Positions 45,001 to 63,000 of a stretch of DNA of 64,000 nt are shown piece by piece. The position numbers are program-made. The DNA is from Ruditapes philippinarum (taxonomy: Eukaryota): positions 1 to 64,000 of the forward strand of contig NW_026857948.1 of the NCBI RefSeq assembly GCF_026571515.1. The letters are read 5' to 3'. The stretch's first letter is position 1. Each line of letters starts with the position of its first letter.

Positions 45001-48000
45001 GTTAAGGCGATAGCTTCTCAACCCAGGAGCCGTTTGTACAAACCATACTGGGATCACACTCATGTAACTATGTGTTCTCGTGTTACACCATTACTGAAGT
45101 GTTCTATCAAGCGAACTGGAGAGTAGTTCAAAAAAGTTACATGATTCTTTATAATTCAATACATAAAATAAAGTTTAATCTGAATGAAAAATTGTTTTCA
45201 TGAGAAACAGTTCATCTTTCTTCTTTTGAATGTGTGTGCATGAAAAAGTGATCAAATCAAAAGTCAATATAGTAAGTTTCAAATTTTCAATGAAACCTAT
45301 TCAAATCTTGGTAAATATTTGAAAGAGTGGAATAAACAATACTTGTTTCAGTACAAACAATATGATTATTTATTAAATTATAAAACTTGATTTAACTTAG
45401 AAATACAAGTATGTGTACATTTATTATTGAGAGGTTGCACGTTTAATTTCAGATGTTGTTTGTATGGTGTATATGGCTAAATGTTAGCAACAACCAGGTA
45501 GAAGGAGGTAACTAAATCTACATCAGTCTTTATAACAGATAGTAATGCGAAATTTTACTTTATAAATTGAAATCGACCTATATTTACATAAATCAAATTA
45601 AAAGAAAAATATTGCATAATGAAGTAAAACAGGTGGTAGTGGAAGTGGTAATACAATAATATATTGTTTTTTCCAGGAGCAGAGATTGATGAAAACTGTA
45701 AAGAAAATTGTGTATGCTGTAAACAAAGATCATGTGGACTAAAATTTAGGTTTCATAACGCTTGTAATTTAGGCTGTATTGATGGTCATAGAGGTGCACG
45801 CTGTTATGAACTATGTACACACAATTGTACAGAATGCGAAAAAGGTGTAGATGAGTGTACTGCTTGTTATGATGGATATTACCCCGGGCGTGCTGGAGAC
45901 TGTACATCGCCATGCTTACCCGGATGTAAAACATGCACGTCAGGTACCACATGTACATCATGTAAGGAGGGATATAATAATGACAATGGTGGAAATGATT
46001 GTAGTAATCGTTACTGTCCTGAAAATTGCTATTGTGATAATGGTAAGTGTGCATCATGTAAGGGCGGATATTACGATACCAGTAATATATGTTCAAGTTT
46101 ATGTCCAGGCAACTGTATCACGTGTTCGTCGAGGACAGATTGTGGATCGTGTAAGGATGGGTATTATAACGGTTACCAGAACGACGCCAATCTTCCTTCG
46201 TTAAATGACTGTACATACAAATGCCGAGACAAGTGTGTACGATGTTCGTCCTATAACAGTTGCTCGCTTTGTCAAAGTGGTCATTATGGACAAAACTGTG
46301 AGAACAGTTGTTCAGCCGGTTGTATGTCAAACACTTGCGATATACTGACTGGAAACTGTTATTGCTCTCCTAATTTTTCTGGAGTAAGATGTGACAAATG
46401 CAAAACCGGGAATTATGGAAATATGTGCGATCAGCAATGCTCCGCAGGGTGTAAAAGTAGCGTGTGTGAAAAAGATTCCGGAAATTGTACTGACGGATGT
46501 TCTATAGACACGATCGTTGGGGATAAATGTAACATTTGTTTAATCGGCTGGTATGGGCAATACTGTAACACATCTTGTTCTGTTGGCTGTAAAAATCAGC
46601 AATGCGTGAAAAGTAATGGTGAATGCTCATATGGATGTGTTGATAACTTTAAAGGAGGAAATTGCAATCAATGCAAACCTGGCAAACATGGGGAGTCATG
46701 CCAAAGTGACTGTCCAAAGAACTGTGACGAGAACGGCTGCTTTAAAGAGTCCGGTAATTGTAAAAATTGCCATGACAACTTTGATGGAGAGAACTGTGAT
46801 AGATGTCGTCTTGGTTTCTATGGTTCATTTTGCTCCGTGAGATGCCCGAATAATTGTTTGAACAATGTATGTGATAGAGATACCGGCACGTGTTCTGATG
46901 GTTGTTTAGACAATTATTCTGGTGATAGATGTTGTATAAGTAATAAAAACTGTATCAAATGTTTATCAGATACTACCTGTAAACAATGTAAGGCTGGATA
47001 CTTTAAGGACAAATGTGACAAAAAATGTCCACAGAACTGTCGTCTAAAGGCCTGTCATATCGAAACTGGTCTTTGTGATGGTTGCAAAGATAACTTTTAT
47101 GGTGATAGTTGCAACTTTTCATGTGCCTCTACATGCAAGACTCAAACAACAACAAGTGGAAGTATATGTCAGCAAAGTAACGGAAAGTGTCTATATGGCT
47201 GTGTTGATGGTTTCCATGGTTTACAATGTTCTGAGAACTGTTCCGTTTATTGCAGCGATACTCTATGTGATCAAGACGACGGCAGATGTACAAAAGGTTG
47301 CAAAACAAGAGTAAAGGATGACCCCATTTGCTCCTCGGATTCTGGTAAGTTACGATTACTCTTTAATCACTATTAAATATCCCTATTGTGTTTCGCAACC
47401 AAAGCAGTTGTATAAATTACACAGACCGGTATAACAATTTAAAAATCTACAGTTAAGGCTAGAAATAAATGTAATTGTTCAATGGAATATCATCAATTTG
47501 AAGCATAATTTTAATAATATACATTTTAACAATTCTTTTAATTAATCAAACACTTAAGTGATGTTGATATTTTCAAATCATAGAACACAATGTACACATT
47601 TGGTTGTTTAAAATCTAGAATTTGTAGGTTTATTTTGTTATTATAAGGTTTTAATTAAACGTTTTCACCGAACAACTGATGTACATCAGTCCTCTAATAT
47701 CGAATATCTATGTTCTAAGATGAAGATAAAGATAGACAGGACAGTTTGATTGAACCAATAGTTGGAGCAATCGTTGGAGTTCTGGTAGCAACAGCAGTAA
47801 TTGTTGGTGTTTTTCTTATCTGCAGACGAAGGTATTCTTTATAAACTATTTATATTTTTTTAGTTTTAATACCATTATATATCAAGGTTTTTTTATTTGA
47901 AAGATACTAGACGCGTGTATGTGTAAATCAATTAATGCTTGTCCAGTTGTCAGTGTGAATACTTTTCGTGTCGCATTCTTAATTTTTACAAACCACATGT

Positions 48001-60000: not shown

Positions 60001-63000
60001 TTCTGGATTTCCCTTCTTGCTTCGCTACTGTTTCTCTGCTGAAACGAGACTTTTTCATTTTGGAAATTTTTCTGTAACAAGCTCGAAATATGAAACAAAG
60101 TCACAATATATCTTAAAGCAACTGACAGTCAAAGATAATACGAAGGTAGTACAAAAGAAAATTAAAAAAATAACATTTTTGTTTATGTTTAGTTTTAACG
60201 ATTGTACAAATTGAGTTTTTAGTAATTACAATTTTAGACAGTTGTTGTTGAACACAATATGATCATGAAGATCGGAACTCATTACCTTCACATCGATTGA
60301 ACTTTCTCGTGTTTAGATTAAAAAAAAAACGACTAAGGGATTATACTTAGTTAATCTATTTAGAAATATTCCAATGTTTAAGATCTTATAATGTAATTAA
60401 AAGCCTACTTATGCATCCAGAAAGTTGCTTCATCTCATTGTTTTTCATAAACTGTTTTTTTATTCTTTACAGTTGTCCAAAATTACCATATCATTTTCAT
60501 ATATACACGAACTATTTTTGCCTCTTTATTTCTGTGCAATTGCATAATTCTGGCGAATTACTTTGTTGGAAGTCACTTCTTATGTTTACATTTTGCGACC
60601 TTTAAATCTAAACTGCCTCATGTATAGCGCTTTCTTTTTTAATTGTTAACCATATAAACTGCACTTATGTCCATTATTAAATCATTACAACAACATTTAC
60701 ATTTCTAAAGAATTACAAACGGTGGAAATTTCTCGGAGTTCATGTGCATTATCGTTATATATTGATACGGCACATTTTAACGTTACTTTTATGGGAATTA
60801 ACGCATATAATTGTAACAGTTTTATAACATTTATATAACCGGCATCTTGCTTTATGACTTGCCGTTGTAATCAAAAAGAGCATAGCGGCAGACAACCGTT
60901 CTTAAATGGGCATATACCATGTCAAACAAATAAAGTACGTTTTACCCTATAGAAAGTTTGACTTTTTATCGTAGAGTTCATAAAACTGTTTTTCTTTAAA
61001 GACCAGAATGTAAATCTTTATTTCATTTCCAATACAAAACTGCAGACTCAGCGCACGAAGAATAGTACCCGACTCAGAGCCATGGATTTGTGCATTTGTG
61101 AAAGAGTTGACAAATGGTTACTAATGACCCAGAAGATATCCCAATATCATATGCACATTAGCTTTATAGAACGTAATATTTTGTTATTCATAAGTATCCG
61201 ATTAGTATGCTCTTTCTCATCGATGATTGGTCAGAAATAAGCAAAGTGATAATGTCTATATTTGTGAATTGTTTCTAGTTGTTTAATAGAAACTGTTGAT
61301 GAATCTTTCTCGAATGCGGATAACATGGTTCCTTTTTGTCACGTGAACACATTTGTAAGTATGTATTTGAATCACCACTTGTCACGTTATTGTCTTGTGA
61401 TTATCTGACGAAGAATTTACAATCCTGACCACACCGATAAGAGAAAATCTTTATCTCTTAACTCAGATCCTCGGTTTTAATGACTTGATCGAAACTAGCA
61501 AAGAATATTCACTGACCAACAAAAATCTTGGTCCGAGACAGATCCCATAGTAACGTTTTATAACCTCCAGTCCGGTTTGGCAAATAATAGGAATAAATAT
61601 AACTTTGTGTGTCAAACTTTTATTGCAAATTCTGTGTTTTACATTCTGTTGATGCTTTTTTTGTTATTCTTTATCATTTGCTAAAATTAATAGAAATAAA
61701 CCTTAGATTGAATTGGATCAAACCTAGTATAATGCTGCTGATGGAAGAAGACAAACTAATTATTTACAGCAATAATGGATTATTTTTTTCCCGCAGATTG
61801 ATAGTATTACTCGACTTATATCAAAATATAGTGTAACCAGCTCTAAATAAGGCTTTAATACCTCCTGTAGTGCTCGTTTTTGGCATATCATCTCCGTATA
61901 CGGCTATTCTTATTAAGAGAAGATAAAAGGCAATAAATTTGTATCAGAATGGCTTTTGAGAGTAGTGGGGTTTGTTTCGTATACAAACTTCTATGAGAAA
62001 CTTGAGAGCTGAACGACCAAGTTAGTTGTAGTTATGTAGTCAGGAAGATCCGTAGACCACCGACCATCAATCCAATTACATCAATTGTTAGTAGTCGACA
62101 AAAAGCATTTTCCACATAATGCATCACTTGTAATTTATCAAAAAGTTTTTCATTCTTATAGTGTCATATTCTTCAAGTGATCAATCCAAAGTCATTTGTA
62201 TATTGATAATCACATGACTCATCTATATTTTGTTTCAGGATCAATTGTCCAACTCCCGTTTTGTTCAAAATCAATTATCTATCTCCCGTTTTGTTCGAAA
62301 ATCAATTATCCACCTACCGTTTTGTTCGAAAATCAATTATCCATCTACCGTTTTGTTCCAAAATCAATTATCCATCTACCGTTTTGTTCGAAAATCAATT
62401 ATCCATCTACCGTTTTGTTTCAAAATCAATTATCCACCTACCGTTTCGTTCCAAAATAATTTATCCACCTACCATTTGTTTCTAAATCAATTATCCAACG
62501 ACTTGTGTTTGCTTTCTGTCCATTAATGGGAACTTTATAACAAAGATGGAAGTGTAATTCTCGTCTAGAATAGATAAATATATCCTACATATACAATCAT
62601 TTTGGTATATTTCAGGAACAATTGAACTTTGTTACAGTGTGTTTCAGCGTATCTGAGATTTACTAACACGTTACTCACAACTTTTTTGCATCTTGAGATT
62701 CACGCAATTTTACATTGTTAACTTAATGTTACACACCTCTTGTTTAACTATTTTTCATTCTTAGTTTTGCCAATTTGCTGGCAAACGGAAACCACAACTT
62801 GCTGGTTTACATGATCTCTCGCGTTTTAACCTTCCTACATATTTTTATCATGATACAAGTTTGTTTATTGCTATTTCATTTAATGTTTACATGTTTACTT
62901 CAATTATATTTATTGTTTAAATCTCAGTTATACTCTATGAGAACTTTTATAGAGTTTCCATTGAACATATTGAAGCATCGTCGGTAAACAAGGCTGTATA

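What the first reader, a model, noticed from the sequence alone, without database searches (positions are those of the whole stretch)
45453..62695. Receptor phosphatase with a MEGF/scavenger-receptor-like ectodomain
The sequence shows a Cys-rich EGF/furin-repeat ectodomain, a TM helix and two PTP domains. Classical vertebrate RPTPs mostly use Ig, FN3, MAM or carbonic-anhydrase-like ectodomains, whereas such EGF arrays characterise CED-1/Draper/MEGF10 and SCARF engulfment receptors. My inference is a recognition receptor directly coupled to a phosphatase, a candidate inhibitory or self-recognition immune receptor. Similar architectures appear in automated mollusc annotations but, to my knowledge, are little studied functionally.
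Basis: partly seen in the sequence, partly recalled or inferred. Interest (0 to 1): 0.7.

Follow-up and report, generated by a model that had tools for sequence, protein, structure and literature searches.

The report
Broken clam EGF-type receptor phosphatase gene
This is a damaged copy of a clam gene family that joins a cysteine-rich, scavenger-receptor-like outer part to tyrosine phosphatase domains; its outer part is intact but its phosphatase half is cut short and decayed, so the locus itself is fairly ordinary.

Summary
There is one + strand gene from an ATG at 45453 to a last remnant ending at 62693. It has a 555-codon Cys-rich exon, a TM exon, juxtamembrane exons and PTP exons.

The claim of two PTP domains holds only in part. 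Exons E1-E12 splice in phase into a 954-codon frame. That frame stops inside E12, 26 codons after the catalytic Cys, at Pfam PTP position 198 of 234. The rest of D1 and all of D2 survive as nine collinear remnants. These carry 14-26 stops or frame changes when aligned to an intact Ruditapes philippinarum relative. E8 also has its conserved motif out of frame, and the paralogues' start region is closed by a stop.

The ectodomain is untouched: 100 of 100 Cys are invariant across six paralogues. Its best solved-structure match is human SCARF1.

The architecture is common in mollusc annotations. 18 of 27 long relatives and 35 of 150 representative clusters carry PTP domains. Close paralogues carry ITAM-like short tails or kinases instead.

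Verdict: a decaying paralogue of a catalogued but unstudied family. I built no joined spliced protein; all searches were exon by exon.

The parts
45453..45507 (+). E1: first ATG and a short hydrophobic signal-like peptide (18 codons plus 1 nt). The paralogues' longer signal peptide has no open counterpart upstream.
   Evidence: tblastn of P0028-P0032 residues 8-25 gives 72-89% identity.
45677..47344 (+). E2: Cys-rich ectodomain of 555 whole codons. It has about five furin-like CxxC..GYY units, then laminin/MEGF-type EGF units. It contains no stop or frame change.
47720..47831 (+). E3: transmembrane helix exon.
   Evidence: Identity to P0001 is 27/36.
48089..48183 (+). E4: juxtamembrane exon.
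   Evidence: Identity to P0001 is 26/31.
48706..48986 (+). E5: juxtamembrane exon leading into D1.
   Evidence: Identity to P0062 is 82/93.
50474..50567 (+). E6: start of D1, including the NRY motif.
   Evidence: Identity to P0062 is 31/31.
50974..51038 (+). E7: D1 exon (DHSRV..FINACYID).
   Evidence: Identity to P0062 is 21/21. Pfam score is 11.4 bits.
51884..51920 (+). E8: D1 exon that is open, but its conserved motif lies in another frame (two compensating frame changes).
   Evidence: In-frame identity to P0062 is 6/12.
52919..53022 (+). E9: D1 exon.
   Evidence: Pfam PF00102 score is 28.2 bits. Identity to P0062 is 32/34.
53592..53717 (+). E10: D1 exon.
   Evidence: Pfam score is 28.8 bits. 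Identity to P0062 is 41/42.
54096..54244 (+). E11: D1 exon with the WPD loop and VHC.
   Evidence: Pfam score is 39.1 bits. Identity to P0062 is 46/49.
55497..55628 (+). E12: P-loop (SAGVGRTG) in frame. The 954-codon frame ends at the stop at 55573-55575. The rest of the exon is a D1 remnant in another frame.
   Evidence: The first part is 20/20 identical to P0062.
57101..57225 (+). E13 remnant: end of D1 and the linker, disrupted.
58127..58240 (+). E14: first D2 exon. It is open at every penalty setting.
   Evidence: Identity to P0062 is 31/38.
58498..58593 (+). E15 remnant of D2, disrupted.
59089..59207 (+). E16 remnant of D2, with one frame change at every setting.
60038..60160 (+). E17: D2 piece, open at the stricter settings.
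60998..61164 (+). E18 remnant of D2 (region of the D2 signature), heavily disrupted.
61948..62086 (+). E19 remnant of D2, disrupted.
62613..62693 (+). E20 remnant: the family's C-terminal exon.

Best explanation
The locus is a decaying paralogue of a venerid-clam family of type I receptors. In intact members of that family, a rod of furin-like and laminin/MEGF-type EGF modules is joined through one TM helix to tandem PTP domains, with D1 carrying the catalytic signature.

In this copy the phosphatase half is dead. The reading frame ends shortly after the P-loop. The last sixth or so of D1 and all of D2 are neutral-looking remnants. One conserved D1 motif has been put out of frame, and the family's start codon region is closed.

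Shown: the exon structure, the breaks and the intact ectodomain.

Inferred: at best the locus makes a 954-residue membrane protein with a full ectodomain and a truncated, catalytically useless PTP stump, and such a transcript would be exposed to nonsense-mediated decay. Intact relatives probably work like other tandem-domain RPTPs, with ligand binding or clustering at the ectodomain controlling D1 activity and D2 acting as a regulator.
For: Exon map and phases: E1-E12 sum to 2862 nt, or 954 codons, with GT/AG at each junction.

Truncation: the frame ends in E12, and the Pfam match stops at position 198 of 234.

Decay downstream: E12b-E20 carry 14-26 disruptions against P0062, at 218-266 identities over 328-346 aligned codons. 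Against P0002 the count is 11-23. The same alignment procedure finds 0 disruptions in E1-E12a.

E8: the in-frame reading matches P0062 at 6/12, while another frame reads the relative's six-residue motif exactly.

Start region: there is an in-frame stop just upstream of the ATG, where five paralogues encode the start of the signal peptide.

An intact template exists: P0062 has two PF00102 stretches, and its D1 covers profile positions 1-233 of 234.

The breaks are not spread evenly. Taking the lowest count (14 downstream) together with the 2 frame changes in E8, the chance that 14 or more of these 16 fall in the downstream 27% of the coding length is 6e-7.
Against: E2 has no disruption in 1668 nt, and all 100 Cys are invariant across six paralogues (600/600 cells, against 1845/2716 for non-Cys). 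D1 exons E6, E7 and E9-E12a are 191/198 identical to P0062. Both results argue that the 5' part is, or recently was, under constraint, or that gene conversion has refreshed it. 'Dead gene' may therefore be too strong for the ectodomain half. No reads or cDNA were available, so assembly error and expression could not be checked. The number of disruptions depends on the alignment penalties.
Confidence: 0.72

Rival explanations
1. The truncated product is a selected, phosphatase-dead receptor. It would act as a decoy or as a ligand-binding partner of intact family members, and selection would be keeping the ectodomain, TM, juxtamembrane region and D1 stump.
For: E1-E12a show zero stops or frame changes over 2862 nt, against at least 14 over about 1040 nt downstream. 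All 100 Cys are kept. D1 exons are 92-100% identical to P0062. An AATAAA lies 21 nt after the stop. Many annotated paralogues lack PTP domains: 0 of the 16 R. philippinarum models have one.
Against: The E8 motif is out of frame. The family's start region is closed. From general knowledge of the PTP fold, a domain lacking its last helices and Q-loop is unlikely to fold. AATAAA is expected by chance about every 600 nt at this base composition. There is no expression evidence.
Confidence: 0.18
2. The whole locus is a pseudogene. The 5' part looks fresh only because gene conversion or unequal crossing-over with an intact neighbouring paralogue copied E6-E12a into it recently.
For: Identity to P0062 changes sharply within E12: 20/20 before the break zone and much lower after it. 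The family lies in tandem or on shared contigs: P0001 and P0062 share one 175-kb contig, and seven Mercenaria members share one 76-Mb sequence. There are lesions in E1 and E8.
Against: E2 is only 72-76% identical to every known paralogue, so no donor for the ectodomain is known. Yet E2 is undamaged, which conversion of D1 alone does not explain. E8 lies inside the supposedly converted span and still differs.
Confidence: 0.25
3. The gene is an intact two-domain RPTP, and the breaks are assembly or sequencing errors.
For: Read by eye from the DNA, several of the changes are single-base length differences, a common type of sequencing error.
Against: At the downstream rate, about 22 errors would be expected in the 1668 nt of E2, and none is seen. 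The remnants also differ by many substitutions, at about 77% best-path identity.
Confidence: 0.04
4. One reading: this locus encodes a working inhibitory or self-recognition immune receptor that couples recognition directly to a phosphatase.
For: At family level only. Ectodomain residues other than Cys are variable (68% identity) on an invariant Cys scaffold. Paralogues with ITAM-like tails exist. The ectodomain fold resembles SCARF1.
Against: The phosphatase part of this locus is broken. No expression, ligand or population data were available. Five literature searches found no functional study.
Confidence: 0.04

Closest known systems
[quoted passage not shown]
   Same: They belong to the same gene family and share the same exon layout. 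D1 exons are 92-100% identical to P0062, except E8 at 6/12. E2 is 75% identical to P0001. P0062 is the intact juxtamembrane + D1 + D2 template.
   Different: The window copy is truncated in D1 and decayed in D2. P0062 lacks the ectodomain in its model and starts in sequence that matches the window's intron 4. P0001 lacks the P-loop exon and appears to read through sequence matching intron 11. No database protein is more than 76% identical to E2.
Mercenaria mercenaria P0002 ('receptor-type tyrosine-protein phosphatase alpha-like', 1197 aa)
   Same: It shows the full architecture in one model: a Cys-rich ectodomain (about 50% identical to E2), a TM segment and two PTP stretches.
   Different: It is intact and comes from another genus. 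Its ectodomain is shorter.
Vertebrate tandem-domain RPTPs: PTPsigma/LAR (type R2A) and PTPalpha/epsilon (type R4)
   Same: They are the best solved-structure sequence matches of the relative P0002's D1-D2: 4bpc at 2.4e-112, 6uzt at 6.5e-109, 1lar at 4.6e-108 and 2jjd at 5.5e-107. The window's D1 carries the same NRY, WPD and HCX5R motifs.
   Different: From my recall of the RPTP classes, their ectodomains are Ig/FN3 (R2A) or short and glycosylated (R4), not EGF arrays. There is no one-to-one orthology, because this family has many paralogues.
Human SCARF1 (SREC-I) and laminin-type EGF (LE) modules of laminins, netrins and Tie2
   Same: They are the best fold matches of the E2 model: 8hna at E 8e-7 with 26% identity over 197 columns, then 4aqs, 1npe, 1klo and netrin-1. 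There are weak sequence matches to laminin beta-2 and Tie2.
   Different: TM-scores are low (0.07-0.46), as expected for flexible rods. From recall, SCARF1 has a non-enzymatic tail. Pfam scores for E2 are below the cut-off.
CED-1 / Draper / MEGF10-11 engulfment receptors
   Same: Both have an array of 8-Cys EGF-like units and one TM segment. Automated names of the paralogues use these labels. The short-tail paralogues carry YxN and ITAM-like motifs; from recall, Draper also signals through an ITAM.
   Different: No EMI domain was detected. No NPxY motif is seen in the window's juxtamembrane exons (read) or in P0001 and P0031. The tail here consists of PTP exons.

Membership tests
Classical receptor-type PTP (class I Cys-based, PF00102) | Sequence match to the PTP domain profile | tested here: met
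   E9, E10 and E11 score 28.2, 28.8 and 39.1 bits against a cut-off of 20.9. E12a scores 17.8 and E7 scores 11.4, both below the cut-off. E6 gives no hit.
Classical receptor-type PTP (class I Cys-based, PF00102) | Catalytic signature HCX5R(S/T) and the WPD loop, both in frame | tested here: met
   WPDKGVP and VHC lie in E11 and SAGVGRTG lies in E12, joined in phase.
Classical receptor-type PTP (class I Cys-based, PF00102) | Complete domain, including the C-terminal helices and the Q-loop | tested here: not met
   The in-frame match ends at profile position 198 of 234. The frame closes in E12. The remainder is out of frame and disrupted.
Classical receptor-type PTP (class I Cys-based, PF00102) | Single TM helix between the ectodomain and the PTP domain, plus a signal peptide | tested here: inconclusive
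   The TM exon is clear. The signal peptide is shortened compared with five paralogues, and a stop lies upstream of the ATG. No signal-peptide predictor was available.
Tandem-domain RPTP (D1-D2, as in R2A/R4) | Intact second PTP domain | tested here: not met
   Seven collinear D2 pieces were found. Five are disrupted at every penalty setting. Pfam finds nothing in the two open pieces.
CED-1/Draper/MEGF10 family | N-terminal EMI domain | tested here: not met
   No EMI hit appeared even at E up to 10.
CED-1/Draper/MEGF10 family | Array of laminin/MEGF-type EGF repeats | tested here: inconclusive
   EGF_laminin scores 18.8-19.9 bits against a cut-off of 21, in 4 stretches. Five CxxCxxGxYGxxC units were counted. 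Fold matches to LE modules were found.
CED-1/Draper/MEGF10 family | Cytoplasmic NPxY and YxxL/ITAM signalling motifs | tested here: not met
   No NPxY is present in E4 or E5 (read). ITAM-like motifs occur in the short-tail paralogues P0030, P0032 and P0040, not in this locus.
SCARF/SREC class F scavenger receptors | EGF-like ectodomain with a SCARF1-type fold | tested here: inconclusive
   8hna ranks first, with E 8e-7 and probability 1.0, but the TM-score normalised to the target is only 0.31, and laminin LE modules score nearly as well.
SCARF/SREC class F scavenger receptors | Binding of modified lipoproteins or apoptotic cells | not testable with these tools
   This needs binding assays.

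The most novel reading that the evidence does not exclude
Venerid clams may hold a clustered, fast-diversifying family of receptors built on one invariant Cys scaffold with variable surface residues. That scaffold would be wired alternatively to tandem phosphatases, to ITAM-like/YxN tails or to tyrosine kinases. This would be an invertebrate counterpart of vertebrate paired inhibitory and activating immune receptors. The window's locus would be a copy caught in the act of losing its phosphatase, possibly surviving as a phosphatase-dead decoy.
Probability: 0.15. Interest if true: 0.7.

Novelty: new member of a known kind. Interest (0 to 1): 0.3.

Why it matters
On its own, the locus is a damaged copy and matters little. 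It does warn that EGF-plus-PTP gene models in clam genomes can hide truncated or decayed copies, and that several public models of this family look mis-built.

The family is more interesting. No vertebrate RPTP class that I recall uses EGF arrays, yet molluscs hold dozens of such genes. In addition, the same ectodomain scaffold appears with ITAM-like tails and with kinases. If ectodomain-matched activating and inhibitory forms really exist, they would offer a testable model for innate recognition in bivalves. That idea rests on sequence comparison only.

Tried and rejected
- Whole-frame Pfam scans of the region failed because the translations hold stops. I went on with stop-free exon pieces. 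One search used a wrong frame for the TM exon and was corrected.
- I tested whether E2 reads through into a TM helix, as the tblastn extension of the short-tail paralogues suggested. This was rejected. A GT donor follows E2 directly, and nothing downstream matches their tails. No short-tail exon was found anywhere in the window at E up to 0.1.
- Using Mercenaria P0002 as the guide made D2 look older and more decayed than it is. P0062 proved a much closer guide.
- I looked for a second paralogue in the window and found none. Relatives hit only 45453-62693.
- Interspersed repeats that might have explained the breaks: self-BLAST found only four pairs, and none lies in the exons.
- tRNA and Rfam scans found nothing.
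- Five literature searches found no study of an EGF-ectodomain RPTP. One search failed because a term was too long. Two snail genome papers list MEGF and PTPRK among expanded or enriched families (passages seen). Their supplements could not be opened and may hold more.
- dN/dS could not be computed, because no DNA of the relatives can be reached with these tools.
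Full report
SOURCE AND SCOPE

The window has no N and about 31% G+C. Its best protein matches are all from clams, chiefly Ruditapes philippinarum, so I did not take it for human. I never built or searched the joined protein. The splice model was checked by reading junctions and adding up phases.

THE GENE

Relatives found with the large exon were mapped back onto the window with tblastn. Junctions were read from the DNA. This gives one + strand gene with these exons:

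- E1: 45453-45507
- E2: 45677-47344
- E3: 47720-47831
- E4: 48089-48183
- E5: 48706-48986
- E6: 50474-50567
- E7: 50974-51038
- E8: 51884-51920
- E9: 52919-53022
- E10: 53592-53717
- E11: 54096-54244
- E12: from 55497

Every junction has GT/AG and the phases fit. The open frame totals 2862 nt, or 954 codons.

ECTODOMAIN

E2 is open for 555 codons; the chance of that at this base composition is 1.6e-20. It holds 100 Cys. Five furin-like C..C..C..C..GYY units come first. They are followed by units of the laminin/MEGF kind, five of which carry CxxCxxGxYGxxC.

- Pfam gives only sub-threshold EGF_laminin (18.8-19.9 bits against a cut-off of 21) and EGF_LMN_ATRN, and no EMI domain.
- Sequence search of the PDB gives weak laminin beta-2 and Tie2 matches.
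- An AlphaFold2 model built from a 20-sequence alignment has mean pLDDT 83 and pTM 0.33.
- The best Foldseek PDB match of that model is the N-terminal fragment of human SCARF1 (8hna, E 8e-7). Laminin LE modules, nidogen/laminin, DLL1, netrins and Tie2 follow. TM-scores are low, as expected for long rods.

The 'scavenger-receptor/MEGF-like' description is therefore fair as a likeness of fold, but it is not membership.

D1

E9, E10 and E11 each pass the PF00102 cut-off on their own. E12a and E7 match the same profile below the cut-off, and E6 has no hit. The matched profile positions run 14-36, 49-79, 83-122, 130-176 and 177-198 of 234. The NRY, WPD and VHC|SAGVGRTG motifs are in frame.

The frame then closes inside E12, 26 codons after the catalytic Cys. 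The next conserved stretch of D1 lies in another frame of the same exon.

E8 is open but odd. In frame it matches the relative at 6 of 12 residues. Another frame reads the relative's six-residue conserved motif exactly. This indicates two compensating frame changes that scramble a conserved D1 motif.

D2 AND THE END OF D1

The juxtamembrane exon E5 found P0062, a 675-residue R. philippinarum model on the same 175-kb contig as P0001. P0062 has two PF00102 stretches and a complete D1. With P0062 as the guide, nine collinear remnants are seen:

- E12b
- E13: 57101-57225
- E14: 58127-58240
- E15: 58498-58593
- E16: 59089-59207
- E17: 60038-60160
- E18: 60998-61164
- E19: 61948-62086
- E20: 62613-62693

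A frame-change-tolerant alignment, run at four penalty settings, needs 14-26 stops plus frame changes, at 218-266 identities over 328-346 codons. With Mercenaria P0002 as the guide the count is 11-23. E14 is clean at every setting, and E17 is clean at the stricter ones. Pfam sees nothing in the two open pieces. The same procedure finds no stop or frame change in E1-E12a.

START REGION

Five of six R. philippinarum paralogues begin with a signal peptide about 25 residues long. The window matches only its last 18 residues. In frame, just upstream of the ATG, the window has a stop and no start codon. P0001's model is shortened in the same way.

HOW UNEVEN THE DAMAGE IS

I took the lowest count (14 downstream) together with the 2 frame changes in E8. 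The chance that 14 or more of these 16 disruptions fall in the downstream 27% of the coding length is 6e-7.

Identity to the nearest Ruditapes models (P0062 from E5 on, P0001 before that) runs as follows:

- E2: 416/553
- E3: 27/36
- E4: 26/31
- E5: 82/93
- E6: 31/31
- E7: 21/21
- E8: 6/12
- E9: 32/34
- E10: 41/42
- E11: 46/49
- E12a: 20/20
- Remnants: about 77% on the most permissive path

In E2 all 100 Cys columns are invariant in the six full-length Ruditapes paralogues (600/600 cells), while non-Cys cells are 68% identical (1845/2716).

The 3' third therefore looks neutral. The ectodomain looks constrained in its scaffold and free on its surface. Most of D1 looks either constrained or recently copied from an intact paralogue. 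I cannot tell selection from gene conversion without the relatives' DNA, which these tools do not reach.

THE FAMILY

- Of 27 longer relatives of E2, 18 carry PF00102. The 17 named ones come from nine bivalve and two gastropod genera, and one is unnamed. P0022 carries a tyrosine kinase domain instead.
- Of 34 relatives of similar length, 16 are R. philippinarum models. None of these 16 has a PTP domain, and 13 are at least 60% identical to E2.
- The window's ectodomain and six Ruditapes ectodomains are all 72-77% identical to one another. PTP-type and short-tail types do not separate.
- The short-tail forms have their own TM helix and tails with YxN. In P0030, P0032 and P0040 the tail also has an ITAM-like YxxL-x9-YxxI motif. 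P0052 and P0054 have a similar motif.
- In the 50%-identity library, E2 has 1900 relatives at E up to 1e-3 and 100 at E up to 1e-30.
- Of the best 150 of these, 35 have a PTP domain, 25 of those with two or more stretches, and 8 have a kinase domain. This was found by local phmmer with P0062's D1 and P0022's kinase part. Their taxa could not be looked up.
- Seven Mercenaria members of both types lie on one 76-Mb sequence.
- The tandem PTP part of P0002 is closest to PTPsigma, LAR, PTPalpha and PTPepsilon among solved structures.

WHAT IT IS

The locus is a decaying paralogue of a mollusc-wide family of EGF-ectodomain tandem RPTPs, a family catalogued only by automated annotation. It cannot act as a phosphatase-coupled receptor as it stands. 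At most it makes a membrane protein with an intact ectodomain and a dead PTP stump. The cDNA condition could not be tested.

LITERATURE

Five full-text searches found no paper on an RPTP with an EGF-type ectodomain. I saw search listings only, plus passages from two snail genome papers. PMC7895826 lists MEGF and PTPRK among gene-family abbreviations in a figure legend on expansions. The bioRxiv preprint 10.1101/2025.05.21.655246 mentions an RPTP-beta among endocytosis genes. Supplements were closed. Statements about vertebrate RPTP ectodomain classes, Draper's ITAM, the SCARF1 tail and the need for the PTP C-terminal helices are from my own recall.

SURROUNDINGS

Upstream of the gene (1-45000) there is no open frame longer than 151 codons, no tRNA, no Rfam match and no second paralogue.

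Noticed in passing
window 62228-62497: A 31-bp minisatellite of 8.8 copies (88% matches) lies in the intron between the last two D2 remnants. It produces the repetitive ORFs seen there.
   Followed up: partly
window 54606-54692: A 21-bp tandem repeat of 4.1 copies lies in the intron after E11.
   Followed up: no
window 5342-5578: A 238-bp stretch matches its own reverse complement at 87%, forming a long palindrome/hairpin.
   Followed up: no
window 10965-11112 and 14665-14813: An inverted repeat pair of about 150 bp at 73% identity lies 3.5 kb apart.
   Followed up: no
window 8801-9106 (+): This open frame has a basic stretch that, from recall, resembles the C-terminal tail of non-LTR retrotransposon proteins. 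Pfam found nothing.
   Followed up: partly
relatives P0001, P0031, P0062 (mapped to window 54243-54524, 48987-49028, 48684-48705): Three public R. philippinarum models seem to translate sequence that matches introns of the window. P0001 reads on after E11 and lacks the P-loop exon. P0031 ends in intron 5. P0062 starts in intron 4. The family looks poorly modelled in the public annotation.
   Followed up: partly
relatives P0022, P0106, P0108, P0112, P0149, P0151, P0163, P0184, P0196: The same kind of Cys-rich ectodomain is joined to a protein kinase domain. P0022 scores 152.7 bits against PF07714, and 8 of the 150 representatives carry a kinase domain. From recall, this is reminiscent of Tie-type receptor kinases.
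   Followed up: partly
relatives P0030, P0032, P0040, P0052, P0054: The short-tail paralogues carry an ITAM-like YxxL-x(7-9)-YxxI motif, and most also carry YxN. Their ectodomains are 72-74% identical to the window's (P0030 and P0032).
   Followed up: partly
window 1-45000: The 45 kb upstream shows no long open frame, no tRNA and no Rfam match. It is either gene-poor or holds only small exons.
   Followed up: partly
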